From: Dipteris shenzhenensis
Taxonomy: Eukaryota
Reading direction: 5' to 3' (one strand)
Assembly: GCA_047967505.1 (NCBI GenBank)
Contig: CM106538.1
Length of the DNA stretch: 64,000 bases
The translations under genes and the position numbers were made by a program. The notes under the pieces are model-generated. The model searched no databases. It was not told where the DNA came from and saw nothing but the letters and a program-made list of their open reading frames with translations. This document shows positions 12,273 to 43,959 of the stretch, piece after piece. The stretch's first letter is position 1; each line of letters opens with the position of its first letter.

Positions 12273-13222
12273 AAAAAGGTGCTCATTTCTGTCGTCACCA
12301 TGCCCACTTGATGATGCATAGTTGCTTTGCTACAACTTCCCACTTTTGATGTCATTCTGCTTTTTATAGCATGTATTCTCCTTGTGTCCAGGCTTTCCAC
12401 AATAATAGCATTCTGTGCTGCTATTTACTTGCTGGTTCCTTTGCCATGAACCACGGCCTCTTTGGCTCCCCCTGCCTCTAGAACTACCACGTCCTCCTCC
12501 ATAGGACTGGTTTTCCTGTTGTTGCTGTTGGTTCTGATTTCCTGCACGGCTACCAAAACGGCCTCTTCCTCTACCCCTGCCTCTACCTGTATTCGAGTAG
12601 AAAGTAGTCTCTTGAGAAGTTGAGGTGGCTGAACCACCATTCCTTTGCTCTTCACTCAGCAAGAGAGCAATAAGTTCCTGAAAATCAGGAATGTTTCACG
12701 GACTCCAATGGATGTCCGAAACTGTGCATAATCTTTCCCAAGACCATTCAAGGTCACAAACACTAAGTCCTCATCATCAACAGGCGCTCCAATGGAGGCA
12801 AGAGAATCTGCAAGGCCTTTCACCTTCAAGGAATACTCATTTATATTCAGATTTTTCCTTTGCACATTGTGCAACTCTTGCTTTAGCTGCATCTTTCGTG
12901 CTTTGGTATTTGTGCTATACAGCTTCACCAATGTATCCCATGCCTCCTTAGGCGTCTCTACATCCTGTATATGCACAATCATAGAATCTGAAATGCTAAC
13001 AGACAGCCAATACAAGCATTTTCTGGCTTTTTCATGCCATTCTTTAAAGGCCTTCAATTCAGCAGGAGTGGGAGCAGTACCCAAAACTGGTTCTGCAGTT
13101 TCACCACTGATGTAATCCCAAACTCCCTTTCCCATAAGGAAGTTTGTCATCCTGAACTTCCATGCTTGGAAGTTGTTCTTGTCAAGCTTCTCACTGACAA
13201 TGGTAGACAGATTCTCAGACAT
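12273..13222 (-). pseudogene. gag: gag of Copia A with one frameshift (~12690) and one nonsense codon (12330-12332)
   Basis: EKLDKNNFQAWKFRM start, RG-rich stretch, CYYCGKPGHKENTC knuckle, split over ORFs 12656-13249 and 12330-12662. Confidence 0.9.
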
Positions 13223-16200: not shown

Positions 16201-19200
16201 AGATGCCTACCGTACTGACTCACCTAGACCTGGACTCGATGATTATGGTGAATGCAGATGCCGTATTGCAGCATAGCGTGTAAGGAGCCATGTATAGTAA
16301 GTGTCCATCTTGTTTTTGGCCTTGGACTCTAGCCGTACATTTGCACTGGACTTTGTTGTTGCGGCATGGTCTGTCTTCTTGGGAGACGCGAGTTTTCATG
16401 AGTTCGCTTGCCGACCCTTGCTTTTATGAGTAGGATGGTACCATCGGAGGGGGTACGTTCACCATTACTTTTGAGTGTTCATCCCCAGAGGAAGGTTCTT
16501 GTGTAACTCTTCATGGGAGAGGGGTCGGTTCTTGTGGGGTTCCTTGGCTGTTTGTGGTGATACTTGTGTTGAGTCTGACCATCTGTGGTACTAGTGTGTA
16601 CTTGATACCTTGGGGCTAGCCTACTTCGTTTGGTTCATCTCAGGGCAGGTTCTTGTGGTGCTATATCTTCGGGAGACATAAGTTCTTGTGGTGCTACCTT
16701 CGACACCTTTAGGGTTTGCACCATCGACTTCAAGACCCAAGTGACCTTCTTGCCTTGGCCGCTTAAGTGGTTGGTGTTGACCGAGCTATTGGAGGGGTGT
16801 GGCAGTGGATGAGGTGGGGGCGCGGGCTAGCAATATGGCTTTCTTCTTGTAATAGATGGTTTTGAAAGAGGCTTCCTTAGGATGACCGAAGTGTTTGTTG
16901 CTACTTTAATGTACTTTGGGAGTCGGGTCCACTGATCGAAGTGATGTTAGGCACAGAGGATAGCATCTTGTACTTGCAGCTCACGGATTTTTTGGGTTGA
17001 GGATGATGCCATAGATTGAGTGGGCAATGACACCGGTTTACCACTATGGCTAGCTTTCTTCCCCTTTCAAGCTAGGACTTTTGGTGGGGTGTTGGTGGGG
17101 ACTGGGGCTTCCACTCTGTCCTTCTGTGTAGCTTCACTATTGTGTATCGGCGGCGAGGGCAAAACTGAAGAATTCGGGCTTGGTCCACACAACAGAACTA
17201 CTGCCATTTAGCCACCATGGGTGAGTGAAGCAGTCCGAGCGCACTAGTCGATTTAACAATTTACGACGTAGCACTAGGTTCATCCTAGTAGAATCTATTC
17301 TTTGGTTGCTTCTGTGAGGAGAACATAAAATTGTATATCCATTGCTTGGTGAACAACCGTTAGGCTTAAACTCACAAAACCCAAATTTTGTAGAAGTTGG
17401 CCATTTTTAGCTCTTATTGAAGCGACGGTAAGGGTTAGGGGTACCCATAGCTTTTCCCATACCTCTCAGGAGAGGAAGTTGTGGCTTGCTCCTAGATCCA
17501 TGAGTGCTTTGATGCACATGCATGGGACCTGCAGTTGAACAAGCAACTTGGATGGCTCTACTGTTAGCTCATCTATATTAGTTGCATCTGTTTAATCGTT
17601 GCCTTAAGCAATGTCATTTGCCTACACTATCGGAGCTTAGCATTACGAATTTTGGCTTCCTCGATGGCCTGGCATTTCATCCTGGCATCCTTGGCCTTGA
17701 GTTCTTTTTCTCTATGCACGGCTTGATGGGTGGAAAGAGTGGGTGGTCCGTAGTATCTTTTTAATTTGCTCCCGTTAAGGTAGCCATCCATTTCTATCCC
17801 ATGAAGGGTGGTTATTCGACATGACCTTTGGGGAGTGATCTCAACTATGCGATAAGGACCCATACCTCGATACTGAAGCTTAGGTTTAGTATTATGAACA
17901 CTGTATAGGAGTGCCAAATCTCCTTCTGCCAGGTCCTTGTTCTTGAGGTTGTGGTCGAACCACTTTTTACATCGGGCCTTTTCTACTCGGAGAGTAGGCT
18001 ACACGCAATCTTCTCTCTTCTAACTTCTCGAGGTCGACTAGCCGTTCTACTAGCACATTTTCTGTGAGTCTTTCCTCAATGGCAAGATGGAGGCTAGGCA
18101 CTACATACTCCATTGGCATTATTGCCTCCACCTCGAAGGCTAATTTGGAGGGGGTACAATGTGTGGCCACTTTGTAGGAGGTCCTATAGACCCATAACGT
18201 TGCTATGAGCTTATGCTCCCAGTCGATACAATTGGCTTCTACCATACATGTGATGATATTACATCACGTTTTGTTGGAGCTGTTGACCAAGACATTTGCC
18301 CTAGGGTAGTATGGCATTGACGTCCTATGTATGATCATAAAATCACTAGTCAGGATTGCTATCAAGAAGTGAGTTCCTCGGTCATTGGCTACCTCCAATA
18401 GACATCCGAACCACGTAATGACTTGTTCATTTATAAGAATTCGGTGGTGGATCTCGCATTAGCCTTCACCATGGCTCTTCCTCTTGCCCACTTGGTAAAG
18501 TAATCGGTGGCAAGGATCATGTATCTAACCCCGGTCCCCTTAGCTGTTGGGGTAAAGGCCAATGGCCTAGTATATACCCCTTTGTACCATACATACATAA
18601 TAAGAGCTTACCTTGACCTGGGTGAGTTAGCACCCACAATTTTTCGTATACTCCTTTTCTTTGTTGCTCTCCAATAAGACTTCCTGATTGCTTACAATTG
18701 ATGCATTTTGAGCCTTTGTTTAGCTAAGAAAGTGAGCATAATTTTTCTGAAGTTGTCATGTATCCCAGGAAGGGATTATTTTTTGTGAGTGCAATACTCT
18801 TCCCATTAAGGGAATTTTTGGGACAACAATTTTCAGAATTGTTGGGCTATTTCATTGGAGTTTATGCCTCAAATGCTTTAGGAAAAGTTGGTGATTGGCA
18901 GTTTGCAGTTTTGTGACAGCTAGAAAAAGTGAGCAGGTAGCTATTTTCAGAAGTAAATATTAGAGAATCCATGAGGAATTGTCTTCAGAGTTGAACTAAG
19001 AAGTTTTAGTTTTTCTGGACAATCTACAATCTTGTTTTTGAAAGCATTTCAATTCGAGATTTAGAGAAAAAGTTATGAGGCCCGGTATGCCCATGATTTA
19101 CAGTTTTGACAGCGGCTAGAAAAAGTGAGCAGGGGGCTGCATTCAGCAGTGAATATCAAAAAATCCATAATGAATTTGGACTTGTACTAAACTAGAAGTT

Positions 19201-23829: not shown

Positions 23830-26489
23830 TGTTGGAACACTGAAAAAAGAGAGTAGAGTTGACACAAAATCAGAATACTTGCATTACTTGGTTGTAGAAT
23901 GAAGAAGAGTGAGGTCCTTAAGTAGGCACCTCATACATGCTCACTGACATCACTGATGACTTCAGAGCTCCACAATCATCTCCTCAATCTGCTCCTAGAT
24001 TCACTCAATCATCCTATGTGGCTTTTCCACCACCTAACTGTGCTTGTGGGCACCTAACTGTGCCTCTAGCACTCACACATAGAAACATAAGGTGTGCCTG
24101 AGGCATACACCTTGAGATATCCCAACAAACCCCCCCTCAAGGGAATGCCTCAAGCTATGTCAAGGATACATCTAGTCTCATAGTTTCTCATGCCATCTCA
24201 TGGTGGTCAAGGATAAATCTATGGCTAGGTTCTCATGCTAGCAAGGGTTTCCTTGGGTGTAAGGTAAACAGAAAGGGATACAAACAGACCTTCCAATGGT
24301 TATCTCCCCTACATGTACATGCACACAATGTCTGTAGGAGGTACCATGGAACAAACATACACATGGCCTACATCATAAGGTGACCAGAGGTGTTTACAAA
24401 ACACACAACACACAATAATTTATTTTCATTCATTTTGGAGGACTATCCAGGCTGAGTACCTTGACATAAAAAGAGAGATCTGGAGCATACATAGAGATGA
24501 TTTAAAATGCATAATCTTCATGGGATGCCTCATCTTGTGGAGGCAAATTCATTGTAAGTAGATTTGCATTTTCTGTCTTTGCTTTGTCTCTGCAGAACTT
24601 CTCACTATGGTTGGTTTTGCCACAGTGCTTACATGGATTAACTTTGAAGCAGTCCTTTGAAAGGTGATTTGTCTTTCCACAGTGATTGCAAGGAGAATAC
24701 TTGCCCTTCTGGAATTTCATAACATAAGCAGTGTCATTGCCTTTCCTTAACTCCATATGTCTTTCTTCTTCTTGGAGAGCTGAGATAATGCCTTCAAGGT
24801 TTGGATTGGGAAGATTCTTCAAAGTGCTTACAATGTGATCAAAGCTTTCAGGCATACTCTTAAGTAGTACTGCCATAGCATCATCAGGGGTGATAGGAGA
24901 GTTGATAGAAGCTAACTGAGTCATAAGACTCCGCATATAGTTGACATGGGCATCTAAAGTAGTATCACTTGCCATCTTTAATTCAAAGAAAGAGATTTTA
25001 AGTGATAGTTTAGAAATATGAGAGCTTGCACCAAAAATCAAATCTAGCTTCTGCCATGCTTCCGCCGATGGAGACTCCAAGTCAGATATATGATGTATGT
25101 AATCATCTCCCAAAGCTAAAGCAATTATACCATATGCTTTTTCTTCTCTTGCTGGATCCCTTGCCGGTCATGTCGGAGCTGAAGATTCTCCAACATTTGA
25201 GGCCATAGAAGAAGCGGTAGGAGTAGGTTTGACAAGTCCCCATAAGTTCTCCCGCATTAATGCAAATTTTACCTTCATTTGCCATGTATGGAACCCCTTT
25301 CCATTGAACTTCTCAAGATTATATAAAGTAGCCATGAGAGGGTCTAACCCAGATATTGGGCAGTGTCTCTCTCTCTTACAAGGCAAAAAAGAACTGAAAT
25401 ACTTCCAAAGTATAGCCACTTGATGTAGCAAATAGTAGTGACTAGTTTTCAAACAATGATGCTACTTTTGCATGCTTCATAGGAGTGAATGAAATAAACA
25501 CTTTCCAATCACAACCAAGTCTAGCAAGTCAAAACAAAACTGAAGCAACACTTGTAGTGAAGTTATTAAAAACTTTAAAAGACCAGAAATGCTAGAGTAG
25601 CATTTTATGTAGCATCATTTTCAAAAGTATGTCAAAACTGTCAAAACTAGAGAGCTGAACTTGGAGGGCTCATATCACACTCTTCAAAGCAAAAGAAAGA
25701 GGGCTTTCTGAGGAAAAAGAAAGCTGGTATACCACAGTAGATCCTCTGGGAAGAAGAGGCGAAAATATGTGTCAGGTCGCCTTCACCTTCTTGAACAAAG
25801 TCGACTGGTTTTTCTCTGTTTTCTCCTTCAATATGCAGCCATTACTGCTCAGATTTCAGCACAAGGTAGCTCTAGGTATGGAGAAGCTTGCCCTAGAAGG
25901 AATTAGGGAAAGACAGAGCAGGCGCAGAGAACTTGCAGTAGAGAATTTCGACGATGTTTCTGCAATGGCGACGAGCAGTGCACGTATTTCGTCAATTCCT
26001 TCCAGCCCGAAGTTCGCCCAATCAAGAGGGATCTCCAGCAGAAAGGGCATGGGAAATGGTTGAGGATTCAAGGAGAACAAGCTCAAGCAAATTTTTGGGA
26101 GAAGAGGGAGAGATGGTGAAGAAGAAGAAGAAGAAGAAGATGATGATGTGGCAGAAATGGGCTCAAGGGGGATCAAATGGCTCTGATACCATGTTGGAAC
26201 ACTGAAAGGAGAGAGTAGAGTTGACACAAAATCAGAATACTTGCATTACTTGGTTGTAGAATGAAGAAGAGTGAGGTCCTTAAGTAGGCACCTCATACAT
26301 GCTCACTGACATCACTGATGACTTCAGAGCTCCACAATCATCTCCTCAATCTGCTCCTAGATTCACTCAATCATCCTATGTGGCTTTTCCACCACCTAAC
26401 TGTGCTTGTGGGCACCTAACTGTGCCTCTAGCACTCACACATAGAAACATAAGGTGTGCCTGAGGCATACACCTTGAGATATCCCAACA
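23830..26489 (-). mobile_element. Gag-only non-autonomous LTR retrotransposon (TR-GAG-like) #2
   Basis: 298-bp LTRs at 23830-24127 and 26192-26489 (2 mismatches seen), TSD AGGTT at 23825-23829/26490-26494, PBS at 26180-26191, PPT after 24127, no pol. Confidence 0.95.
24502..25335 (-). pseudogene. gag: gag (277 codons) with two CCHC knuckles and one in-frame TGA at 25168-25170
   Basis: ORFs 25168-25452 and 24502-25113 share a frame; contains CNHCGKTNHLSKDC and CKHCGKTNHSEKFC. Confidence 0.9.
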
Positions 26490-29400
26490 AGGTTGGGCAC
26501 CTTCCCTTATAGGTATCGTGTGTACTACCACATCTGGTGAAATTCCTTTCATCTCTTTGTTATGACCATGCCAGGCAGTCATAGTATTCCATTAGGAGTG
26601 CTTTGATCTCGGTTTCATCTTCTTGTCGAAGCTGTTTCCCAATGAAAACCAATTTTTCTTCCTCCCCTTCAAGGGCGAGGTTCATAGGACAACTTAGGAT
26701 GCTAGAGAGTGCAGCTCCTTCAAGTTGGCATTGTGAAGAGAGTGGGAGAGAAGGAAGGAATCTCACTTGCAGCTTTCTCACATACACAATGGGGGAATAT
26801 GCACAAAGGTGGAGGCTAAAAACAGTTTTCCTCTTCTTAGTTGTGAAAGCTAAAAGAACTCTAAGTACAAAAGAATAGGTGAACCCTATATGTGGGTCTC
26901 AAACCAAACTCAGAACTAAGGTGGCATACTTACTGAGCCACTAACTAGAGTATATAAAGATAGCTGTCATCTAGCTATTATTCATGGGCGTTGTACCAAC
27001 CGCATCATCTGCACCTAACAAGTCGGTGACATAAATGCACAATGGTCACCCTGGCATACCACGGGTGGAGCTCGATATCTCCACTCCCCCTTGAGCTCAA
27101 TCCCAATTCCTACACACCAAGAAGGTCTCTAAACTTGAGTAGCTTCTCTGCACCCAATGCCTTCGTGAATATGTCAGCTACTTGATCCTCTATGCTGACA
27201 TAAACTAGATCAATAAAACCTACTAGAACCTTCTCTTGCACATAGTGATAACGCACCTCAATGTGCTTTGTTCTAGCATGATAGACTAGGTTATTTGCCA
27301 AGTGTATACTACTCATGTTGTCACAATAAATGACAACTGGCCCACCTGTAGACTGATACATATCATAAAGTAGCTTATGCAACCAAGCTACCTCACATGC
27401 AGCCATTGCTACACCCCTGTACTCAGCCTCTGTGCTCGACAAGGCAACTGTAGGTTGTTTCTTGCTACTCCAAGTGATTGTAGCACTCCCAAAAGAGAAC
27501 ATATATCCACTTGTAGATCGTCTATCAGAATTACTACTAGCCCAATCAGCATCAGTGTATCCATGCAACTGTATTTGAACCCCAGTCTCATAAAATAGTC
27601 CATACTACAATGTGGACTTCACATACCTCAGTATGCGTCTAGCCGCATCCAAATGCAGTTTCCTTGGAGCCTGCATAACTGACTTGCCAACACAACAGCA
27701 TAGCTCAAATCTAGCCTAGTAATAGTCATGTAAATCAAACTTCCTACTATGCATCTATACATAGTAGGGTCTTCCAGAATCTATAATGCATCTGCACTCA
27801 ACTTCACATTCTACTCCAAAGGAACTAAAATAGGCTTATAGATTCTCATCCCATATTTGGACACAATGTCCAATCCATACTACCTCTGCAAGAGCCATAT
27901 CCCACTTGTGGATCTAATCACCTCAATGCCCAAGAAGTAACGCAACTCTCCCAAATCCTTCATCTCAAACTTCTGCTTCAATAGCATTTTCACATGAAGG
28001 ATATCTTCATCACTATCACCTGTGATGATCAGATCGTCAACATAAATGACAAGCAACATAATGCCTTTCTCTGTGTTTCTCACATAAAGTGAGAAATCTG
28101 CCTTGGAAATCTGAAAGCCAATAGTGACAAGATACTGTGTTATCTTGTCAGACCATGCTCTGGGTGCTTGCTTCAAGCCATGCAAGGCTTTCTTCAACCT
28201 GCAAACAAACTCAGGATGAACAGCATGAACATAACCTAGTGGCTGCTCCATATAGACCTCTTCTTGGAAATCACCATGCAAGAAAGAATTCTTTACATCC
28301 ATCTGATGTAAAGACCATCCCTTTGATGCAGCCATAGCAATGATTGCTCTTACGGTTGCTATCCTTGTAGCCAGATTGAATGTTTCTTCATAATCAATGC
28401 CATATGTATGTGCATACCCCTTGACAACTAATCTTGCCTTGTATCTGTTCACAGAATCATCTGCATTGTGCTTCACCTTATAAACCCACTTGCAACCAAT
28501 TGCATTCTTGTATTTAGGCAAAGGCACCAATTCCCATGTAGCATTTGCTTCCAAGGCATCCATTTCTTTATCCATGGCTTTCTCCCATTTTTCTTTTCCC
28601 ATGGCTTGCTCAAAAGAAGTGGGTTCTGGTTCATGTATCACTTTGACCATATAGGCATAGTGAATGGCTATAAATCCATCATATTTTAGCCTATCCATAG
28701 GATACCTAGCTCTGGTAGACTTGTGCAAAATAGGCTCACTACCAAGTGCTCTCAAAACATCCCTTGTCTTCCTTGCTCTAGGTGTAATAACAGAAGGAAT
28801 ACCCAACTCATCATCAAGGCTCTGTTCTGAGCCATTGGATTCACCATCCACATAAGAGTGACCTGCATTCACATCAACCATGGGCTGATCTACTTTCTCT
28901 TTTTCTTTTCGTGATACTTGCATACCACTATCTGCATTGCTTTGAGGAGATCCTCTTGATCTCAATCTACCTGTCCATGGTGAAGTATGTGAACCACTGC
29001 TAGAGGACACTACAAGTCCACTAATATTTTGTGATTATTGCTATGAATTCTGTGCAGCATTACCATTTTGTGTATCTACATCATCAATCACATTTATTGG
29101 TTTATACTAGCTACTTATATCATCAAAAATAGCAACTCTTCTCACTATTAACTTACGAGTAGAAGGGTTATAGTATCTATACCCTTTCTGCTGCAGAGAA
29201 TAACCAATAAAGATGCACTTCTCAGCTTTTGGATCCAACTTGGATCTCAACTCATCTGTCTCATGAACATAGGCAATGCAACCCAAAACTTTCAAATGAG
29301 AAATATCTAGTTTCCTACCAGTATACCTCTCCTCGGGCGTCATGCCATGTATTGTTGTAGTGGAAGCCTGCTCATTGTGTAGACTGCTGTGGCAACTGCT

Positions 29401-30866
29401 TCAGCCGAATAATAATTTGGCAGGTCTTTTTTGTTGAGCATGGTACAAGATACCTCTCTAATATGCCTGTTTTTCCTTTCTACAAGTCCATTTTGCTGTG
29501 GAGTATGACTGCATGAATAATGCTACTTTATGCCATGCTCCTGCAAGAAACTTACAAACTCATTTGAGAGGTACTCTCCCCCTCCATCTGACCTTAGGCA
29601 TTTTATTTGTAGGCCTATTTCTTTTTTAACCATAGCTTTAAAAGCTTTGAAATGCCCAAACACTTCACTTTTCTTTTTCATAAAATATACCCAAACTTTT
29701 TTGCTGTAGTCATTAATAAAAGTGACAAAATAATGACAGCCTCCAATAGATGCAGCTTTAGTAGTCCACACATCAGAGTGGATTAATTCCAATGGCCTCT
29801 TTTTTTCTTGAACATGTCTAGGAAATGGTTTCCTTGCCTGTTTTCCAAATTGATAGGCTTCACATACCTTATGCATTTGTGCCAGATATCAATATCTGCA
29901 ACTACACCTGTCCCATGTGCAAACATTGCTGCACTCAATTCAAGCATGTCCGCATCCAACATAAACATCCTACCCTTCTTCTTCCCTTTTGCTATCAAGC
30001 GACCTTTATTTTTCATATCCTCAACAAAGCATCCATGAGGATTAAATCTGACCTGCAAGTCTTGCTCAACCATTTGACCAATAGAAACTAGGTTCTTGGT
30101 GATATTCAAAACATGAAATACATCAGACAGGTATTTCTTTTTTCCATCCTACATAGACATAAGAATTTTACCAATCTGCACAATAGGATGTGCAGTTTCA
30201 TCACCAGCCTCCACAAATCTTGGTCCTGCATTTATTTTGCATGACCTGTCATGTGGTTTGACGCACCTGAGTCAACATACCACACATCATTGCTTTCTTT
30301 TGCACTTTTTACAGAATTGGTCATGTGCTGCACCATAAACATATGCTCATTTCTGTCATCACCCTGTCTACTAGAGGGTGCATAATTGCTTTGCTGCAAT
30401 TTTCTAGTCATGATGTCATTCTGCTTTTTATAGCAATCTTTAACCATATGACGCATTTTACCATAGTAGCAGCATTCAACATTGCTGTTTGCATTTTGGC
30501 CTCTCTGCCATCCACCATGACCTCTTTGGGGACCCCTGCCTCTAAAGTTACCACGTCCTCCTCCATAGGACTGGTTTTCTTGAATTTCCTACATATTTTG
30601 ATTTCTACCTGTTGAGAGTTCACGCTCAACATCATGTGATCATGTGTGCATAGCACCATCACGTGATCATATGTGCATAGCACTAACCTTATAGAGTGCT
30701 ATAAAGGAAAGGGTTAGCTCCCCTAACCCTAACCCTAAAAGGGTTTGTATATATTCTATTTTTTCAACTAATTCTAGTGTACAGTTAGTCATTTGTGGTG
30801 TGCTCTCTAGCTGTGCCCTCTCTCCTCATCTCCACTCTTCTCCTCTCCCCTCTTCATATTTTGTCA

Positions 30867-30878
30867 TGGTATCAGAGC
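30867..30878 (+). promoter_or_regulatory. Primer-binding site (tRNA-iMet)
   Basis: TGGTATCAGAGC immediately after the LTR CA end. Confidence 0.95.
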
Positions 30879-31621
30879 CTCCCTTGTCTTCCGTTGAGAC
30901 ATTGAGTTTCTTGAGAGTGTGAGAGAGATTGTGAGATTGAGAGTTCTCTTGAGTGATTGTGAGATCCTTCCCTTCACTTCCGTTGAGAGAAAATTCCGTC
31001 CATTAACTTTCTTGAGAGTTCTTTGTGAGATTGAGTTTTCTTTTCCATGAGAGAAAATTTCCGTTCAATTTCGTTCATTGAAAGTTCTTTCTTCCTTGAG
31101 AGACAAGAGAGGTGTAAAGAGAGGTGTTCATTCCCGAGTCGAGCTTTGGAGCTATGGGTCTCTACATGTAGTCTTCTCTCTCTCACTCAACGAGAATGGA
31201 ATGAACACGGTTTCCGAGAGCTCCCTAGCCTCCAGCATAGCTCCAAGCATTTGCTGGCTACTCCAGCACAGTCGCGACTCACCTCTAGTCTGAGGTCTCC
31301 AACATCTACGAGATTCACGACAATCAACGGACCTTGCAATCAAACAACAGCAAATCAGCTCATGGGCTCCTAGTAGCGCGCACAGTCGGCAGCAACACTG
31401 TCTTGCTTCAACGACCTCTAAGGCTTCGACAGCCACCACAGTTCAAGGCCTTAAGGTCTCAACGCTTATTGACGGACCAGCGCCTAGCACCTTCTCCATC
31501 TCCAATGACCGACGGCCTCTCGCGGACGATAGGCAGGCTCTTGAAAGCTCCTTCGCATCTTCAACGGCCCTTGGCTGCAAGCGACGATAGGTGAGGCGCT
31601 GCACCATGGCAGCGCAAGCAG

Positions 31622-32059
31622 TGGCGAAGGATACACGGTAAAGCCCAGCTTCGACTTCTTGCCATAGTCCACGGAGAGCCACTCCAGAAGAAGACTGGCA
31701 AGGCTGGAGCCAGTGCCGCCTCCGACCGCTAGCTTCCTAATGCGGTCAAGGCAGAGATCCACAATCTCCTTTCCAATGGTATAGTGGCCTCGGGCGAAGT
31801 CGTTTGCAGCATCCTCCTTGCCGCTGATGAGCTGCTCAGGATGGAAGCGCTGCCTGTACGTGCCAGTGCGAACCTCGTCGATCACAATGGTCTCAAGATC
31901 TAGGAAAATAGCTCGTGGGACATGCTTGCCAGCTCCGGTCTCGCTGAAGAAGGTGTTGAACGTGTCGTCGCCACCGCCCACAGTCTTATCGCTTGGCATC
32001 TGGCCATCGGGCTGGATGCCATGCTAGAGGCAGTACAGTTCCCAGCAGGCGTTGCCCAC
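31622..32059 (-). pseudogene. TUA: Intronless alpha-tubulin fragment (codons ~16-175) with a nonsense codon and a 14-codon deletion
   Basis: Translates [102 protein letters not shown], matching the highly conserved alpha-tubulin sequence. Confidence 0.97.
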
Positions 32060-32174
32060 GGGTGCTCAACAACAACTCGACCAAGCACACAGGCTTTCCA
32101 ACAGACTTCCAACAGACGCTGCGACGGAATCGGCATCTTTGACAGAATCTCTGAAAGATTTCGGCGGCCCACGA

Positions 32175-32330
32175 GGCGACACGTGGCATCCCACACTCAA
32201 CCCAACCTTATCCTCAGGGTCACCACTCACCCTAGAAGTGGTCTGCAGGTTGACACGTGGCAGACCTTATCTGCCACGTCACCATCGGAGCCACGTCATC
32301 AGTGCCATGTAAGCAGTCCACGTACAGTGA
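32175..32330. promoter_or_regulatory. Cluster of G-box/ABRE-like ACGT motifs with a 10-bp hairpin
   Basis: GACACGTGGC twice, GCCACGTCA twice, CCACGTA; stem ACGTGGCAGA/TCTGCCACGT at 32255-32279. Confidence 0.5.
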
Positions 32331-33122
32331 CACATCATCATTGAGCACCATTTGCACTCCTTTTGCCCCTCCACCTAGATCAAGTCATATCTCTTGATCC
32401 AGGAAGAATTTGAGGGTGCTCCAAAAAGGAAAGTCGCTCGATTTTTCGTGCTCTACGCGCTCGTTACATCACATGCACATTTCAGTGCAAGTTACACTCA
32501 CATTTGAGCCTCGTCGACAAAACCACTTCCTTCACGCACATTTGCCTCTACATCGACGCATCTGACCCAGCACTTAAAAAGAACAAAGGAAAAGGAATTA
32601 TTTGCTGCTCTTTCATCGATCGATGGTTGGTTTAGATCTAGATCAGAGCAGACTAGATCGCCATAGAGGGGACGCTTTGAATTCCCCAAGTTGCCAATCT
32701 AAGCCATGCCCGAAATTCCCGACTAGTACCTACTCGGAGTCAGTCCATACGCTCACATCTGATTTCACATCATTGCATTACCTGAAACCTTACGTTCATC
32801 AGTTCAGTGAGCAGACTTCAGAGTTCAGAGGCATTGCAGATTGATTCAGTGGGCAGATAGCACTTGATTTCACACACACATGCCACCATTGTAAAGCCTA
32901 TTTGGCTATCTCACGGCATCGTGCACATCATTTTTCAGCCTTGTAAAGCCTCTTGGCTATTCCCGGCATCATTGCCACAAGCCTTGTAACACAGATCAGA
33001 TTTTGTATACTTCAGTTCTATCTTCACCGACGGTACAGAGATTTCACTTGGCATCTTCAGTGTCTTTGCAGTTGATTCATACAGAGTTTTCCAGGACACT
33101 TTTTGAGTACATTGCTTGCACC

Positions 33123-36100
33123 ATGTCGACTAGCAACCTCAATCTGGAGGCATCTGCTAAGTTAGACAACTCCAATTATGGTACATGGAAATACTGAATG
33201 GAGACCATTCTTGTGCTTCAGGACAAATGGGAGTATGTCGATGGATCCATACCTAGACCATTGGCCGATCCAGCCACCAGTAGCTCTACTCCATCTGTTG
33301 TCACAACACCAGCAACGGGATCTACATCGGGATCTACATCTACACAAACAGTTTTCGCATCAGTAGCAGATCCTGCCATTGCCCGAGCTCAATCAGAATG
33401 GGATAAGAAAGACAAGTATGCCTATCACCTGATCAAGCAGAATGTGCAAGATGTCATGCTAGGACAGCTCAACACAGTCAAGACATCAAAAGAAGCATGG
33501 GATATGTTCGCAGCTCTCTACGAGTCCAAGAACACATCCAGGATTCTCACCTTGAGAAACCAGATCAACCAGAGTTTCTGCAATAGCAATGAAACCGGTC
33601 ATGCTTATGTACTCCGCATCAAAGACTACAACAATCAACTTGCAGCAGCAGGAGAGACTATGAATCCCGCAGAAATGGTTCAAGTAATCCTGAATGGACT
33701 AGGAGAAGGATATGAGAATCTAGTCCAGAGTATTGCCATCCAACGGCAAATTCCAACACTGGAAGAACTTCAGTCAGTTCTACTTGGTGAAGAACTCAGG
33801 ACTCAAGCCATTCAAGCATGTAAAGTAATGATCAGGCATTCACCGCTTCAGACAGAAGCAGAGGCAAAGGCAGAAACAGAGGTAGATCATATCAGAAAAG
33901 TGGTCATCATCATTAACAAAATCAAAGTCAGAATCAGCATCAGCATCAGCAGCATCCTCAGCAACATCAAAATCAGCAAGGAGGAAATCATTCCAACCGA
34001 GGAAGATTCCAAGGACGAGGGAATGCATCCACCAATGTGTCAAACATTCAATGCAACTATTGTCACAAGTTTGGACACTATGAAAGAGATTGCCACAAGA
34101 AGCAGTATGACCAAGGCGGTCAATCTAGCAGTAATCGAGGGAATTCCGGAGGAAGAGGAAATCATCGTGGTGGACATTCTAGTCACAGTCATTTTGCAAA
34201 TGAACATGGAAATATGTTTCTTGCAAGTGAGGAATTGCGTCAGACTGATACAATGCACCTAGACACTGATTTCAATCCCAAAGAAGATTTCAGTTATCAA
34301 GTCGACCAAGTGGAACAGGATCCTTGGTACATCGACAGCGGTGCATCATCTCATATGACAAATCATTAGGAATGGTTCACAGAAATGAAGCCATTAGAAG
34401 GTCAAAAGAATGTCATCTATACCGCAGACAATACACCGAATCCGGTTCAAGGGACAGGTGTTATCCCTATGAACAATTTCACTGGTACAAAAGGATTAGT
34501 CAAAGATGTGCTCTATGTTCCGAAGCTCAGCAAGAACCTTTTGTCAGTAGGTCAAATGACGGAACACAACTACAAAGTCATCTTCGACGGTGATGAATGC
34601 ACTATCAGAGACAAATCCAAAAGAGGTCAGCTAGTAGCAAAAGGTGTCAAGGAAGGACGCTTGTACAGGATGCTAGCTACAGTACCAGATAAGCATGCCA
34701 TGTCAGCTCAAATGCAACAGATGCCACTATCTGCAAAATGGCACAAGAGATATGGTCATGTCAACTTCAAGTACTTGTTAGATCTAAGGAATCAAAATAT
34801 GGCAATTGGGATTCCGAAGCTACAGTTTCTTGGAAAGGTTTGTGAAGCATGCTGCTTCGGCAAACAAAAGCGAACCAACTTTGTCAGAAGTACCTCTCGT
34901 GCATGAGGTATTCTTGATTTAATTCATACAGATGTATGGGGTTATGCCCAGACCCGCAGCATCAATGGTTCACTTTATTACTTGACCTTCATCGACGACT
35001 ACAGTAGATATTGTTGGGTCTACTTTCTGAAAGAGAAATCTGAAGTTTTTTTCAAAGCCATGGTAGAAAACCAAACAGGCAGAAAGATCAAGGTCATGAG
35101 ATCAGACAGAGGAGGTGAATACATGTCTTTAGCCTTCATGAACTTTTGCAAAACTCACGGCATTCGAAGACAATTCACATGTGCAGATACTCCTCAGCAA
35201 AATGCAATAGCTGAAAGGAAGAATGGGACTTTAGTAGACAGTGCTAGAGCAATGCTTAGTGAAAAGCATCTTCCGAATCAGTATTGGGCAGAAGCAATAG
35301 CTACAGCTAACTACTTGCTTAATCGGCTTCCTACCGAACCGATACAAGGAATGACTCCTTATGAAGCATTCACTGGACACAAGCCACGCATTGGGCATCT
35401 CCGCATATTTGGTTGCATAGCATATGCCCACATACATGATGATCATCGCAGGAAATTGGATGCGAAGTCATGCAAATGCATCATGGTTGGCTAGAGTGAA
35501 GAAAGTAAAGCATACAAATTGTATGATCCCATCAACCGCAAAGTCATTATCTCCAGAGATGTAATCTTCGATGAGGAATCAGAATGGAAAACCTCACCTA
35601 CACAGGAGATAGAAGCATCGACTTCACAGTCATCTACAGAACAGGTTGATGAAGAAGAGCAAGAATTGCCAGCAACACCCCAATCAGCGTCACAGCAGCT
35701 CAGACGGTCTACTAGGGAAAGCAGACCACCAGCCAGATTGACATATGCTCAGAAAGGCAAAGCACTTCAGGTGGAAACCACCAACTATGCTCTTATGACT
35801 ACCATCATGGCTACAGAAGAGCCAGTGTACTTCGAAGACGCAGTAGACAAGCCAGAATGGCAAACTGCCATGAATGAAGAAATGGATGCTTTGTATAAAA
35901 ATAACACTTGGGAATTATGCGACCTTCCACCAGGAAAGAAGGCCATAGCCAACAAATGGGTATACAAAGTGAAGTACAATCCAGATGGCAGTATTCAGAG
36001 ATACAAAGCCAGATTAGTTGCAAAAGGATTTGCACAACAATATGGCCAAGATTATGATGAGACTTATGCTCCAGTAGCAAAGATGGATTCCATACTGTTC

Positions 36101-37369
36101 TTGATATCACTAGCGACACTCAGTAAATGGAATGTGTATCAGCTCGATGTCAAGAATGCATTTCTCAATGGTTATCTAGACGAGGAAGTCTACATGCAAC
36201 AACCAGCCGGTTATGTTGAACCAGGACAGGAGAACAAGGTTTGCCATCTCAAGAAAAGTCTCTATGGCTTAAAGCAAGCACCCAGAAGTTGGTACAGCAG
36301 AATTGACACATATTTTGCTGATCTAGGATACATGAAGTCCAATGCAGATCATACTCTCTACTACAAAGTTCAAGGGGAAGATATTACTATTGCACTTTTG
36401 TACGTAGATGATCTGATTGTGATAGGAAGCAAGGATAGCTTCATCAAAAAGCTAAAACAAGACTTATCTGCAGAGTTCGACATGAAAGATCTTGGACTTA
36501 TGCACTATTGTCTTGGAATTGAGTTCTGGAGAGATTCAGATAGCACATTCATGAGTCAGCTCAAGTATGTTGACAGTCTCCTGAAGAAGTTTCATATGGC
36601 AGATTGCAAGATTGCAGCCACTCCCATGGAACAGAGTTTGAAACTTACTAAAGATTCAGAAAAGCCTACAGTCAATGACAGATACTACAGGCAACTCATT
36701 GGATCTCTTATATATCTGACAATCACACGGCCAGATATTTGTTATGCAGTAAGCTCACTAGCACAGTTTATGGCAAATCCAAAATAGTCTCACTGGAATG
36801 CAGCCAAAAGAGTCTTGAGATACATCAGAGGTACAAGACAATTTGGGATAGAATACAGAGGAAGTCATCCACGGTTGCATGGATACTGTGACAGTGACTA
36901 TGCCGGAGATCATGAGACCAGGAGATCGACACAGGGATATGCATTTTTCCTTGGTCAAGGTGCTATATCATGGTTGTCAAACAAACAGCCAACTGTTTCT
37001 CTGTCTTCGACTGAAGCAGAATATAGAGCACTCACTACAGGTGCATGTGAGGCTATATGGCTCAGAAGACTATTGTCAAAAACAGATTACTTTGATGAGT
37101 CAAAGCCAACAACAATATACTGTGATAATCAATCGGCTCAAGCATTGGCCAAAAATCTAGTATATCACTCCAGAACAAAGCACATTGATGTCAGAGAGCA
37201 CTTCATCAGAGAAAGAGTGTTACTTGGTGACATCACACTGCAGCATTGTGATAGCAAAGAAAATGTTGCAGACATCTTTACCAAACCACTCGGTAAAGAG
37301 CTATTCGAGAAACACCGACTAGCTCTTGGTTTGATGCAGAGGAAGGACATTCCCATTAAAGGGGTGTGA
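33123..37369 (+). pseudogene. Copia C gag-pol with multiple nonsense codons and a frameshift
   Basis: CNYCHKFGHYERDC, WYIDSGASSHM, RSDRGGEY, YVDDL, GYCDSDYAG. Stops at 33195, 34367, 34904, 35492, 36785; frameshift ~33820. Confidence 0.95.
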
Positions 37370-38763
37370 TGGAATGTAATGCTCAGTCCTTCTTCGATTC
37401 CCCAGAATCATCATCTTGAGGGAAGGCCTACTTCATGATGTTGATCTTGAGGGAAGGTGTTGAGAGTTCACGCTCAACATCATGTGATCATGTGTGCATA
37501 GCACCATCACGTGATCATATGTGCATAGCACTAACCTTATAGAGTGCTATAAAGGAAAGGGTTAGCTCCCCTAACCCTAACCCTAAAAGGGTTTGTATAT
37601 ATTCTATTTTTTCAACTAATTCTAGTGTACAGTTAGTCATTTGTGGTGTGCTCTCTAGCTGTGCCCTCTCTCCCCATCTCCACTCTTCTCCTCTCCCCTC
37701 TTCATATTTTGTCACTACCACGGTCTCCAAATCGGCTTGCTCTACCTCTGCCTCTACCTCTTCCAGCATTTGAGTAGAAGACTGCTTCTTTTGAAGTTCC
37801 TCCTAAAGAAGATGCACCACCATTTCTCTGCTCTTTAGAAATTAGAAGAGCAATCAACTCCTCAAAATCAATAAAGATCTCATGGACTGCAATGGATGTC
37901 TAGAATTATGCATAATCCTTTCCTAGACCATTCAAGGTTACAGAAACTAAATCATCATCTTCCACTGGTGACCCAATAGAAGCAAGTGCATCTGCAATCT
38001 TCTTCACCTTCATGTGGTAGTCATTGATGCTCATATTTTCTCTCCACATTATGTAACTCCTCCTGCTTGAGCTGTATTTTCCTGGCTTGCATATTTGTGC
38101 TATATATTTTTGTCAAAGTATCCCACATGTCCTTCGGCGTGCTTGCATCCTGAATATGCATAATCATAGAATCTTAAATACTGATAGACAGCTAGTACAT
38201 AACTTTTTTGGCTCTCTCATGCCAGCCTTTAAATGCCTGCAACTCCTTTTGATTAAGAACATTAGGAATAACTGGTTCTTGTTTAGCTCCAGGAATGAAC
38301 TCCCAATAGCCTTTTTCCTTAAGGAAATTCATCATTCTAAACTTCCATGCTTGGAAGTTGTTCTTGTCAAGCTTTTCAGTGGCAATTTGTGAAAGAGCAT
38401 CAAACGCCATTACAGAACACTGCAAAATATTCTGTCACTGTAAAAAAACACAACTTCTGCCTCACAAGGTCAAATCTGCAAAACTGATGAGAGTGGTATT
38501 TGACCACACAGTCACTTCCTAGTGATGATTATGCATCAATAAGCAATAAGAATGATTCTATCACTCCCAATATCTCTGCGCATAGGCATATGATGTGATT
38601 TCTATGATAACTTTTCATCGACCTACAGAACAGTTGTCGCACAGCAAAAACAAGGCACTTTCTTGAGTGCCTATGAAAAACTTCCACCACCAAAACGGGC
38701 CCTGAAATGGCCTCGAATCAAAAAAATAATAGGCTTGGGAGCTGATGTGGATGAACTTGGCTT

Positions 38764-41500: not shown

Positions 41501-41770
41501 GACTGTTCCATGAGTAGCACTGAAAGTTTTGTAACTGCTAATCTTTTTCATGTCTCTGTAGATTTTCTTAGTCTTGCAATGAACCAGGCCGTGAGGTCTA
41601 GAATGGCATGTAAAAAGGAGCATCATTGGCATCAATTAAAAAGAAGGAGAAAGGAAGACCGTCTACGATTTATAAATAAATAAATAATATAAGAAAGATA
41701 ATGTGGATTAAGAAATTTCTTGATTGCAAGGGATTGGGGGGCCTTTTCTTAAATATATGTATAAGACTTT

Positions 41771-41993
<223 letters not shown>

Positions 41994-43959
41994 CTCTGAT
42001 CTACCATCCATTGTTTTCATACCCCTCAATATATCCATCTCTCCTCAAATTGAATCCAAGCTCCCTTGATTGCCTTCCAATGGTTCTAATCCATGGATTT
42101 GTAATGATTCTACATAGATGGACCTTACAATTTTGCACCACTCAAATCTTCTCGAATGTGCAGTGTCAAAATATCTTGCCTAAACTCTATTTGAATTGTT
42201 ACATCATCATTATTTTTGGAACCCAAGGTAAGCTTGGTAGCTCCAACACATTTTACAATCACTACAGTGTTTGGCTCTAACAAATTTGTCATAGTGGAAA
42301 TAATTTTAACAAGCTCATCATGCTCTTCCTCAAAAACATTCTCTTCCTCAACACCCATGTCCAAATTAGCTATCCCACAACTATGTGCTTTGGGAAATAC
42401 CATTATTCGAGCTCATATTGAAAGACAACACAAGTTCATGAGGATTGAAGCTATGGTGAGATTCAAGACCCAATCAAAAAAATATTAAAACAAAAAATGA
42501 AAGCTGGATTTTTGTGCCTATTTTATGACCGCAATGTGTTAGCATATAAATTGAAACAATCTATGTGCCAAATATAATATATTGTTATGTGATGAGCATG
42601 GGCTTGTCCATACCCTTTGATTGTATGTGGCACTACACATAGTTGAAGGGACAATATTAAATTTGTAGGAATTCGTATAATAGGTGACTATCGTTTAAAT
42701 TTTCTCCCAAACAAGGAGTCTCCAGATGGATTAAATCATGAAAATATTACAAAGGAAAACTAGGCAATTCTAGGCTGAGAACAATCATGCAAACAAGAGG
42801 CCAATCTACTTGCCCATGAAGAAACCATCTGTTCTCTACTGCAAAACTTATCTAGCCCACAAGATGGCCAACTTGTAGATTAGCCCAAAGATTACCCCCA
42901 GGGACAAACCTTGCCACAAGATTACACGATGGCTAAGTAGTGACTAGTTGTGAAGCAAGAGAAGAGTAGTAGAGAAATCCCCTTTGCCATGGGAAACCTT
43001 CGTAAGTATTTACAAAGTTGATGCAAATTGAGGGAAGGCAAGAGAGCTCTTCAACCCCATTCAACTATGTGCAGTGCTACACATAGTTGTGGAACCTTAT
43101 GTAAAGGTTTAAATCCAACGTTAATTAACCTTGTGAAGGAGGGTTAGCTAGAGCCTTCATGCCCTTTGATCAAGACAAGCTTACAAATGGAAGCAATAGA
43201 GGGAAGATAATTTCCATAACAATAGAGGTGCAAAGTTATGGCCCATGCTCTTCATAGAAGATGAGATGAGCTTCTCATGAGAACATGAGCTTGGAAGGAG
43301 AGGCTTTGGCACATTGTAATGGCCAAGCTAGCCAAACATAGCATGGCAACCATGATGAGGTTCAAAGAGAGTCCCTTGTTTTTTAGATACTCTTGTTAGG
43401 CCAACTACTCACAAATTTGTATAGATTCGAGTGCCCCTGCACTCTCTTCAACTCTGTACACACAGTTTAAGATGGCATTATTGTAGATTGTGCTTGAATC
43501 GACCTCTCCCTCAGGAGATGCTTGCCCTAATGTACACATAAGAAAGCCTTATTTCATCAAGTATGTCTCTAATATAGACATAAGAAAGCCTCAGGTATTC
43601 ATGTAATACTAACATCTATTTAGAAGCACAGTGCACCCATAAGCTCACTTAAATCAATTTTGAGAAATCTATCAATGCTATCCATTTGACAAACATATGT
43701 AGTATTGGAGCTAAAGTTGATCTATATTTTGCAATAGATTAAATGAAGTTGAACCAATCTTTTAGTCAAATAGAGGCAAGGCCTTAAGAAAGGTGGAGTG
43801 GCTTTTTTTGTGTGTTGAAAGATGTGGTTGAAGGAGAGTAGTGTTAAAGAAGATATGGTTGAAGGTGAGGAATGGAACCATGCAATATTTTCAAGTTGGT
43901 GGCCCTCCTCTTTGTAGAGGTCAGGATGCCAATTGCATCCTTGTTAAGAGGGAGTCCTA

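What the first reader, a model, noticed from the sequence alone, without database searches (positions are those of the whole stretch)
31622..32059. Spliced alpha-tubulin fragment captured antisense in the 5' leader of a very young Copia
Seen: 438 bp encoding alpha-tubulin codons ~16-175 lies between the PBS (30867) and gag ATG (33123) of Copia C, opposite to the element's transcription, with no intron and GC-rich codons unlike the element. Known: angiosperm TUA genes have introns within this span (near codon 31 or 38 and at codon 110). Inference: it derives from mRNA/cDNA, since splicing of the element's own transcript could not remove antisense introns. Any full-length element RNA would carry antisense tubulin sequence able to form dsRNA/siRNA against an essential host gene family, or to shelter the element from silencing.
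Basis: partly seen in the sequence, partly recalled or inferred. Interest (0 to 1): 0.85.

Follow-up and report, generated by a model that had tools for sequence, protein, structure and literature searches.

The report
Decayed tubulin fragment inside Copia retrotransposon
A plant jumping gene of the Copia type carries, backwards in its untranslated front part, a broken intron-free piece of the host's alpha-tubulin gene; such captured gene pieces are a known and fairly common by-product of retrotransposon life, and nothing here shows that this one does anything.

Summary
Window 31622-32059 (minus strand) encodes alpha-tubulin residues 16-175 (Pfam Tubulin E 7.5e-29; solved alpha-tubulins E 5e-83). 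It lies antisense in the 2,256-bp leader of a structurally complete Ty1/copia element at 30610-37714. That element has LTRs identical at 256 of 257 bases, a CTACC target duplication, a PBS and a PPT.

- The piece is decayed. It has a TAG at codon 27, a 14-codon deletion (127-140) and 8 private replacements at invariant positions.
- It sits in a roughly 1.2-kb block (31150-32350) that is richer in GC and CpG than the element, next to a dense cluster of ACGT-core motifs.
- The element itself is coding-defective, with five premature stops and one frameshift.

The piece has no intron, poly(A), TIR or flanking duplication. It is a captured host gene fragment, probably cDNA-derived and probably acquired before this copy was made.

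"Spliced" is unproven. The host is known only as a streptophyte, and its tubulin genes could not be reached. No sister copies, RNA or small-RNA data were available.

Antisense exon fragments in Copia-lineage elements, and the siRNA cross-talk and shelter idea, are already in print for maize (bioRxiv 10.1101/777037). This is a new member of a known kind, of low to moderate interest.

The parts
30605..30609 (.). Target-site duplication CTACC (left)
   Evidence: Read directly. The same 5 bases follow the 3' LTR at 37715-37719.
30610..30866 (+). 5' LTR (257 bp, TG...CA). It holds a by-eye TATA-like TATAAAGG at 30700-30707 and a (CCCTAA)3 run at 30721-30738.
   Evidence: the repeat finder D11. blastn gives 99.6% over 257. 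TRF found the CCCTAA run. The TATA is read by eye only.
30867..30878 (+). Primer-binding site TGGTATCAGAGC directly after the 5' LTR
   Evidence: Sequence read. Its complementarity to the 3' end of plant initiator tRNA-Met is recalled, not tested here.
30867..33122 (+). Leader between the PBS and the gag ATG (2,256 bp)
   Evidence: It has no copy elsewhere in the window. CpG o/e is 0.60-0.80, against 0.37 for the element's internal region.
31150..32350 (.). Compositionally foreign block with approximate limits. GC is 0.51-0.59, against 0.38-0.47 in 150-base windows outside it (30400-31224 and 32350-33999).
   Evidence: composition_profile. CpG o/e is 0.80, 0.75 and 0.73 for its three parts. 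No Pfam family reached its cutoff in the 10 ORFs scanned in and around the block; the best was DUF4390, E 0.22.
31622..32059 (-). Alpha-tubulin fragment, residues 16-126 and 141-175. It has TAG at codon 27 (32024-32026) and a 42-bp deletion junction at 31727|31726.
32178..32296 (.). Cluster of six ACGTGKC (G-box/ABRE-like) sites abutting the codon-16 end of the fragment
   Evidence: 6 of the window's 10 matches lie here. Shuffles give 3.5 +/- 1.8 per window, and 0 of 100 shuffles reach 10. The motif consensus is recalled. Function was not tested.
33123..37369 (+). gag-PR-INT-RT-RH coding region, defective. Premature in-frame stops are at 33195 (TGA), 34367 (TAG), 34904 (TGA), 35492 (TAG) and 36785 (TAG). 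A frameshift lies between about 33900 and 34000.
   Evidence: the ORF listing. Codon contexts. Pfam finds Retrotran_gag_2, Pol_BBD, gag_pre-integrs, rve, SH3_retrovirus and RVT_2, in Copia order.
37449..37457 (+). Polypurine tract GAGGGAAGG
   Evidence: Read, directly before the 3' LTR.
37458..37714 (+). 3' LTR
37715..37719 (.). Target-site duplication CTACC (right)

Best explanation
What it is. It is a passenger: a decayed, intron-free piece of a host alpha-tubulin coding sequence. An ancestor of this Ty1/copia element acquired it, and it now sits antisense in the leader, inside a roughly 1.2-kb patch of foreign, gene-like (GC- and CpG-richer) DNA.

How it got there (inferred). A genomic or extrachromosomal copy of the element took up a patchwork of host sequences in its leader by an orientation-blind event. 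This could have been break repair with filler synthesis, or a reverse-transcriptase template switch during plus-strand synthesis. A spliced tubulin cDNA or mRNA, or an existing processed pseudogene, served as one template. The altered element had lost or later lost its own coding capacity. It was then copied by the proteins of autonomous relatives. One such copy landed recently inside an older Copia and made the CTACC duplication.

What it does (inferred). Most likely nothing. If the 5' LTR promoter fires, the full-length RNA necessarily contains 438 nt of antisense tubulin sequence, so siRNA cross-talk with tubulin genes is possible. It is not shown.

Shown: identity, orientation, position, decay, lack of introns, poly(A) and TIRs, foreign composition, defective ORFs, near-identical LTRs and the nested insertion.

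Inferred: cDNA origin, capture before this insertion, trans-mobilisation and lack of function.
For: Identity and place.

Decay of the fragment:
- Eight replacements occur at columns where 11-13 of 13 comparator alpha-tubulin fragments are unanimous. There is also a TAG at codon 27 and a 14-codon deletion.
- The 13 comparators were picked by hand from the 120 hits listed. They comprise 6 named plant entries and 7 unnamed ones.
- The decay means there is no protein-level constraint.

Timing:
- About 2.4% change at constrained sites compares with 1 difference in 257 between the LTRs. A conditional binomial gives P about 0.003 that both share the same age. An earlier figure used an overcount of 11 changes and should be ignored.
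- The element's own ORF independently shows five premature stops and a frameshift. This fits a lineage that was defective long before this insertion.

Foreign origin of a block wider than the tubulin piece:
- GC is 0.51-0.59.
- CpG o/e is 0.73-0.80, against 0.37 for the internal region, 0.19 for the LTR and 0.30 for the window.
- GC3 is 0.69, against 0.37-0.46 for the element's ORFs.

Other capture routes: there is no poly(A), TSD or TIR at the fragment ends.

Real transposition event: the flanks 27075-30605 and 37880-38617 are collinear with another Copia at 8902-13462. The repeat spacing jumps from about 18,064-18,175 to about 25,155-25,185, which is close to the element length plus the TSD.

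Precedent:
- LTR elements with gene fragments are common in maize (20 in 22 Mb; PMC2773423 passages).
- 3% of maize Sirevirus (Copia-lineage) elements carry exon fragments with no orientation bias (bioRxiv 10.1101/777037 passages).
- Bs1 and the rice and sorghum surveys are further cases (review PMC13317346 passages).
Against: - No sister copy could be examined, so 'acquired by an ancestor and propagated' rests on a molecular-clock argument. That argument fails if the two LTRs were homogenised by gene conversion, which is reported as frequent in large plant genomes (PMC5751070 and PMC7251063, search listing and abstracts only).
- The parent tubulin gene is unknown, so the absence of introns may simply reflect an intron-poor parent. 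Class I flowering-plant TUA genes have 'one to three' introns, and the host may not be a flowering plant.
- The canonical template-switch model gives sense-oriented copies that replace internal element sequence (PMC5131818 passages). Neither holds here, so the capture mechanism is conjecture.
- Lack of function is assumed from decay. An RNA-level role would not be revealed by protein-level decay.
- The flanking parts of the GC-rich block have no recognisable origin.
Confidence: 0.72

Rival explanations
1. One-off insertion after integration. The element is in fact old (about 2-3% decayed). Its LTRs were later made alike by intra-element gene conversion. The tubulin-containing patch was pasted into this single genomic copy during repair of a DNA break and never transposed.
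For: - The decay of the tubulin piece (about 2.4%) is of the same order as that implied by five stops and one frameshift in 4.2 kb of ORF. Both could have decayed together in place.
- No sister copy carrying the fragment was found anywhere I could look.
- LTR gene conversion is documented (PMC5751070 and PMC7251063, listing and abstracts).
Against: - At about 2.4% per lineage the two 257-bp LTRs would be expected to differ at about a dozen sites, and only one is seen. Conversion would have had to cover essentially the whole LTR recently.
- The 'not found' results are uninformative, because none of the collections searched holds this host's genome.
Confidence: 0.2
2. The antisense tubulin segment is a selected feature. 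Element transcripts pair with tubulin mRNA or feed siRNA production against an essential gene family. Alternatively, the host cannot afford to target this sequence, which shelters the element from silencing.
For: - By anatomy, the segment lies downstream of the 5' LTR and PBS and upstream of gag, so any full-length RNA carries it antisense.
- The element inserted recently by the LTR measure.
- The concept has support in maize, where 24-nt cross-talk siRNAs correlate with CHH methylation of captured regions of donor genes. The authors also note that antisense captures might trigger RNAi more readily (bioRxiv 10.1101/777037 passages).
Against: - There are no expression, small-RNA or methylation data for this locus.
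- The fragment is drifting, with 8 replacements, a stop and a deletion. This erodes the perfect 21-24-nt matches needed for cross-talk.
- There is no sense copy within the element to form an internal hairpin. The best inverted repeat touching the fragment is 21 nt at 71%.
- Half of Sirevirus captures are antisense by chance alone.
Confidence: 0.06
3. Capture of genomic DNA, not cDNA. The parent tubulin gene of this host simply has no intron between codons 16 and 175, so the intron-free state says nothing about an RNA intermediate.
For: - The host is not a demonstrated flowering plant.
- Class I flowering-plant TUA genes have only 'one to three' of the introns at 31/32, 109/110 and 233/234.
- The adjacent ACGT-motif cluster looks like promoter DNA rather than transcribed sequence. 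That would favour DNA-level patchwork.
Against: - In flowering plants both TUA classes usually have an intron at 109/110 and another at 31/32 or 38 (PMC11841252 passage). Two independent intron losses, or a lineage without them, would be needed.
- The fragment is internal to the coding sequence and has abrupt junctions.
Confidence: 0.2

Closest known systems
Exon fragments captured by maize Sirevirus (Ty1/copia-lineage) LTR retrotransposons, and the 'epigenetic conflict' model (Muyle et al., bioRxiv 10.1101/777037; passages read)
   Same: - The element superfamily is the same.
- Partial exon sequence sits inside an otherwise recognisable element bounded by TSDs.
- Captured pieces lie in either orientation, with no bias.
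- The same proposed consequence applies: siRNA cross-talk with the donor gene and possible benefit to the TE.
   Different: - The host here is an unidentified streptophyte, not maize.
- The piece comes from the 5' third of the coding sequence (residues 16-175) and includes no gene end. In maize, 64% of Sirevirus captures are 3' exons.
- The donor here is an essential cytoskeletal gene family.
- No siRNA, methylation or expression data exist here.
Bs1 of maize (Jin & Bennetzen 1994; Elrouby & Bureau 2001, 2010; seen only as described in review PMC13317346, and PMC5131818)
   Same: An LTR retrotransposon that carries pieces of host genes and behaves as a non-autonomous element.
   Different: - Bs1 holds pieces of three genes that form a transcribed and translated chimeric ORF.
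- Here there is one recognisable piece. It is antisense, in the leader, interrupted by a stop and a deletion, and the element still has a full (though broken) gag-pol.
- That the Bs1 pieces are sense and intron-free is recalled, not read.
LTR-mediated retrocopies formed by microsimilarity-dependent template switching (Tan et al. 2016, PMC5131818; passages read)
   Same: A partial copy of a cellular mRNA lies between the LTRs of an LTR element, and such chimeras can undergo further rounds of retroposition.
   Different: - In that model the retrocopy replaces part of the element's ORFs and is transcribed in sense from the LTR.
- Here nothing of gag-pol is replaced and the piece is antisense.
- Microsimilarity at the junctions cannot be assessed without the parent gene and an empty element.
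LINE-mediated processed pseudogenes
   Same: An intron-free, decayed copy of a host coding sequence.
   Different: The piece has no poly(A) tail and no flanking duplication. It lacks the 3' end of the mRNA, being internal (codons 16-175).
Pack-MULE, Helitron and CACTA gene-fragment carriers
   Same: A TE carrying a host gene fragment, often next to other unrelated fragments.
   Different: - No terminal inverted repeats or TSD surround the block.
- The carrier is an LTR retrotransposon.
- Those elements typically copy genomic DNA with its introns (recalled).

Membership tests
Ty1/copia LTR retrotransposon | Two direct LTRs ending TG...CA, flanked by a 5-bp target-site duplication | tested here: met
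   The LTRs are 30610-30866 and 37458-37714, identical at 256 of 257 bases. They start TGTTG and end GTCA. CTACC lies on both sides.
Ty1/copia LTR retrotransposon | PBS next to the 5' LTR and a polypurine tract next to the 3' LTR | tested here: met
   TGGTATCAGAGC is at 30867 and GAGGGAAGG at 37449-37457. The match of the PBS to tRNA-iMet is recalled.
Ty1/copia LTR retrotransposon | Domain order gag - protease - integrase - reverse transcriptase - RNase H (integrase before RT) | tested here: met
   Retrotran_gag_2 lies in 33198-34259. Pol_BBD and gag_pre-integrs lie in 34370-34903. rve and SH3_retrovirus lie in 34907-35491. RVT_2 lies in 35495-36784. RNase H was not detected by Pfam in 36788-37366.
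Autonomous (coding-competent) element | Uninterrupted gag-pol reading frame | tested here: not met
   There are five premature in-frame stops and one frameshift.
TE-captured host gene fragment in an LTR retrotransposon (Bs1-like, Sirevirus captures) | Significant homology to a host gene unrelated to transposition, located between the LTRs | tested here: met
TE-captured host gene fragment in an LTR retrotransposon (Bs1-like, Sirevirus captures) | Fragment shared by several element copies at different loci (that is, it transposes with the element) | not testable with these tools
   - No genome is held.
- The window holds no sister copy.
- The protein, metagenome and exact-sequence look-ups found none.
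RNA-derived (retro)copy | Parent gene has introns inside the copied span that are absent from the copy | tested here: inconclusive
   The copy is intron-free. Flowering-plant TUA genes have introns at 31/32 or 38 and at 109/110. The host and its TUA genes are unknown.
LTR-mediated retrocopy by minus-strand template switching (Tan et al. 2016) | Retrocopy in the same orientation as the element, replacing part of its internal sequence, with microsimilarity at the junctions | tested here: not met
   The piece is antisense and gag-pol is complete in extent. Microsimilarity is not testable.
LINE-mediated processed pseudogene | 3' end of the mRNA with a poly(A) tail and flanking target-site duplication | tested here: not met
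   The fragment ends at codon 175. No A or T run and no direct repeat lies at the ends.
Pack-MULE or other TIR-element carrier | Terminal inverted repeats and a TSD around the captured block | tested here: not met
   The longest inverted repeats in the leader are 21 nt at 71% and 17 nt at 82%, and neither bounds the block.
Functional alpha-tubulin gene | Full-length open reading frame (about 450 aa) with an intact GGGTGSG motif | tested here: not met
   Only 146 codons are present. There is a TAG at codon 27 and residues 127-140 are deleted. The motif reads GGGTGSS.

The most novel reading that the evidence does not exclude
A still-mobile, non-autonomous Copia subfamily keeps an antisense alpha-tubulin segment in its leader as a 'hostage' or decoy. 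Silencing the element through small RNAs would collaterally hit an essential gene family, so the host moderates silencing and the defective element keeps spreading. The adjacent cluster of ACGT-core (ABA- or light-type) motifs would make its antisense-tubulin RNA stress-inducible.
Probability: 0.05. Interest if true: 0.65.

Novelty: new member of a known kind. Interest (0 to 1): 0.24.

Why it matters
This is one more documented case of an LTR retrotransposon carrying a piece of a host gene, here from an essential cytoskeletal gene and in a plant lineage whose Copia elements are poorly represented in databases. It is useful for annotation, because the 179-codon open frame would be miscalled as a tubulin-like gene. 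It is also a possible test case for the published 'epigenetic conflict' idea. An essential, highly expressed donor gene is exactly where a cost of cross-silencing should be visible, if the host's genome, small-RNA and methylation data are examined. On present evidence it changes no general understanding.

Tried and rejected
Searches that gave nothing useful:
- Own genome: none is held.
- Sequencing runs: no RNA holder is listed.
- Protein search with the 179-aa chimeric frame, near lengths: 6,173 hits. The 120 listed are ordinary tubulin fragments, and none is a sister of the chimera.
- Protein search of longer proteins: the list is dominated by multi-copy tubulin fusion models and gives no lead to the host lineage.
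- Protein search with the RT region: best identities are 40-55%.
- ESM Atlas: says only 'Streptophyta'.
- Metagenome scans with gag (12 pattern matches, none confirmed) and with a 23-base junction pattern (0 matches).
- Exact look-up of two element ORFs: neither is in the collection.
- Rfam at gathering threshold: 0 matches in the window.
- Pfam on 10 ORFs in and around the GC-rich block: nothing above threshold.
- Earlier findings of the scan: nothing relevant.

Papers:
- PMC3726574 holds none of the terms intron, orientation or antisense.
- PMC160511 (Bs1, 1994) is not held.
- A search for tubulin gene structure in mosses and ferns gave nothing usable.
- Supplements were not opened. Table S7 of PMC2773423 and Figure S11 of the maize preprint may hold orientation and intron details.

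Readings rejected:
- A LINE-type processed pseudogene, because there is no poly(A) or TSD and the piece is internal.
- A Pack-MULE or Helitron carrier, because there are no TIRs.
- The 42-bp deletion as a spliced mini-intron. It has no GT/AG at any register allowed by the GCG(G) microhomology, and 42 bp is shorter than plant introns (by eye and recalled).

Weak lead, not pursued: the deletion ends at codon 140/141 and the fragment ends at codon 175/176. These are close to intron positions reported for one poplar gene (140) and for class II genes (176/177). The boundary is uncertain by a few bases and the host genes are unknown.

Full report
**1. The observation**

The reverse complement of window 31622-32059 reads, in one frame, [31 protein letters not shown]...[12 protein letters not shown].
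- Pfam assigns it to the Tubulin/FtsZ GTPase domain (PF00091, E 7.5e-29, 101.8 bits against a cutoff of 33).
- A phmmer search of all solved structures returns 170 distinct sequences at E<=0.001. The 60 listed are alpha-tubulin chains with a top E of 5.2e-83, and the query aligns end to end with residues 16-175.
Residues 127-140 are missing (42 bp, junction at 31727|31726), and codon 27 is TAG (32024-32026).
- The 438 bp therefore hold 146 codons, not 160.
- There is no intron-sized interruption.
- GC3 is 0.69, against 0.37-0.46 for the element's own reading frames.

**2. The carrier**

A 257-bp direct repeat (30610-30866 and 37458-37714) differs at one base. It begins TG and ends CA, and CTACC flanks it on both sides.
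- TGGTATCAGAGC follows the 5' LTR and GAGGGAAGG precedes the 3' LTR.
- On the plus strand lie gag, the Pol beta-barrel and pre-integrase domains, integrase, the SH3-like domain and RVT_2, in that order. This is the Ty1/copia order.
- The gag ATG is at 33123, so the leader is 2,256 bp and the tubulin piece lies in it, antisense.
- The element sits inside an older, oppositely oriented Copia. The flanks 27075-30605 and 37880-38617 are collinear with another Copia at 8902-13462. The repeat spacing jumps by about 7.1 kb across the insertion.
- Of the 28 open frames of 150 aa or more in the window, I scanned 20 with Pfam. Twelve are retrotransposon proteins and none is an ordinary host gene.

**3. 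The copy is structurally young-looking but broken**

The reading frame has premature in-frame stops at 33195 (TGA), 34367 (TAG), 34904 (TGA), 35492 (TAG) and 36785 (TAG). It also has a frameshift in gag near 33900-34000.

The tubulin piece is decayed too. I aligned it with 13 alpha-tubulin fragments, hand-picked from the 120 listed (6 named plant entries and 7 unnamed). The piece has eight residues that none of them has, at columns where 11-13 of 13 agree: A48T, P72T, T73I, L86R, N102D, G148S, G150A and R156W. It also has the stop and the deletion.

That is about 2.4% change at sites that are otherwise frozen, against one difference in 257 between the LTRs. If both had started to diverge at the same moment, a split at least this uneven has P of about 0.003. 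The figure printed used an overcount of 11 changes and should be ignored.

Two readings fit:
- The lineage was already defective and already carried the tubulin piece when this copy was made by the proteins of other elements. I favour this reading.
- The copy is old and its LTRs were made alike by gene conversion, which is reported to be frequent in large plant genomes (PMC5751070 and PMC7251063, listing and abstracts only).

Only sister copies can decide, and none could be reached:
- No genome is held.
- There is no copy in the window.
- There is no chimeric relative among the predicted proteins.
- Two metagenome scans found nothing.
- The exact ORFs are not on record.

**4. The foreign patch is larger than the tubulin piece**

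GC rises to 0.51-0.59 between about 31150 and 32350, against 0.38-0.47 in the 150-base windows outside that span (30400-31224 and 32350-33999).

CpG observed/expected values:

| Region | CpG o/e |
|---|---|
| Left flank of the block | 0.80 |
| Tubulin piece | 0.75 |
| Right flank of the block | 0.73 |
| Rest of the leader | 0.60-0.67 |
| Element's coding region | 0.37 |
| LTR | 0.19 |
| Whole window | 0.30 |

The flanks have no recognisable coding homology. In 10 ORFs the best Pfam hit was E 0.22.

Directly beside the codon-16 end lies a striking cluster. Six of the window's ten ACGTGKC sites fall in 32178-32296, where shuffles give 3.5 +/- 1.8 for the whole 64 kb and 0 of 100 shuffles reach ten. 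This looks like promoter-type DNA (G-box/ABRE-like; motif recalled). I could not find its origin.

No poly(A), target duplication or terminal inverted repeat bounds the fragment or the block. That excludes a LINE-type processed pseudogene and a TIR-transposon carrier.

**5. Is it 'spliced'?**

Class I TUA genes carry one to three introns at 31/32, 109/110 and 233/234. Class II genes carry four, at 38, 109, 176/177 and 346 (PMC11841252, passage read). If the parent were such a gene, two introns have been removed. Because the piece is antisense, the element's own transcript could not have been the spliced molecule, and that logic is sound.

But the host is unknown:
- The element's RT region is only 40-55% identical to the 120 best proteins in a collection of 5.8 billion. 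Pine, Ginkgo and many angiosperms are all at the same distance.
- The Atlas says only 'Streptophyta'.
- The fragment reads FLDLE, as the seven unnamed comparators do, where the six named angiosperm comparators read FVDLE. It reads KTV, as five of the six angiosperm entries do, where the maize entry and the seven unnamed ones read KTI.

The host may therefore not be a flowering plant, and I found nothing in print on tubulin gene structure outside seed plants. I rate cDNA origin at about two in three.

One curiosity remains. The internal deletion ends at codon 140/141 and the fragment ends at 175/176. These are close to an intron reported in one poplar gene (140) and to the class II intron (176/177). 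With the boundary uncertain by a few bases, this is only a lead.

**6. How it most likely came about and what it does**

The standard model for LTR-mediated retrocopies is a template switch from element RNA to a co-packaged mRNA during minus-strand synthesis. It yields sense-oriented pieces that replace internal element sequence (PMC5131818, passages). Here the piece is antisense and gag-pol is complete in extent.

An orientation-blind route therefore fits better. It could be patchwork filler synthesis at a break in a DNA copy of the element, or a switch onto an mRNA during plus-strand synthesis. This is inference. It agrees with the mosaic, gene-like flanks and with the finding that captures in maize Sirevirus elements show no orientation bias (bioRxiv 10.1101/777037, passages).

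As for function, the anatomy guarantees that any full-length element RNA carries 438 nt of antisense tubulin. Nothing here shows transcription, small RNAs or an effect on tubulin genes. The piece is drifting, and no sense partner exists inside the element. I take it for a passenger.

**7. Comparison with what is known**

Gene fragments inside LTR retrotransposons are long known and common:
- Bs1 of maize, and hundreds to more than a thousand cases in rice and sorghum (review PMC13317346, passages).
- 20 LTR elements with gene fragments in 22 Mb of maize. The explicit suggestion that such fragments could feed siRNA pools regulating their source genes was already made in 2009 (PMC2773423, passages).
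- 204 maize Sirevirus elements (3%) with exon fragments, in both orientations. These were analysed under a model in which cross-talk siRNAs create a conflict that may also shelter the TE.

What is particular here is the donor (alpha-tubulin), the place (leader, with gag-pol retained), the neighbouring ACGT-motif cluster and the poorly sampled host lineage.

**8. Verdict**

This is a new member of a known kind, with interest 0.24. The boldest reading still open is a 'hostage' sequence that protects a spreading non-autonomous subfamily. I put it at about 5%, and it would be worth about 0.65 if true.

Noticed in passing
window 32178-32296: There is a dense cluster of six ACGTGKC (G-box/ABRE-like) sites within 120 bp, inside the Copia leader and next to the tubulin fragment. 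That is 6 of the 10 sites in the whole 64-kb window, and 0 of 100 shuffles reach 10. It could be a captured promoter piece or an internal stress-responsive enhancer. Origin and function are unknown.
   Followed up: partly
window 30721-30738 and 37569-37586: Both LTRs hold three tandem CCCTAA units followed by A, which is telomere-repeat-like (TRF; sequence).
   Followed up: no
window 8612-14052 (minus strand): A second Copia element has 99%-identical terminal repeats (8612-8911 and 13753-14052; the tool reports only 300 nt). It has an uninterrupted 1,153-aa pol frame (8868-12329) and a separate gag frame (12656-13270). It appears to be a far better preserved copy than the tubulin-bearing one, and it is the relative (71-83%) of the older element that the latter interrupted.
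   Followed up: partly
window 41716-42035: There is a long array of an 8-bp unit, about 40 copies at 99% regularity in its core (repeat finder D1).
   Followed up: no
whole window: The window is a nest of Copia elements. Of the 28 frames of 150 aa or more, 20 were scanned; 12 are Copia gag or pol pieces and none is a host gene. CpG observed/expected for the window is 0.30, which suggests heavy long-term methylation. Rfam finds no RNA family.
   Followed up: partly
window 35495-36784: The element's RT region has no relative above 55% identity among the 120 best hits in the 5.8-billion-protein collection, and gymnosperm and angiosperm hits are equally distant. The Copia lineage or the host clade is therefore poorly sampled.
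   Followed up: partly
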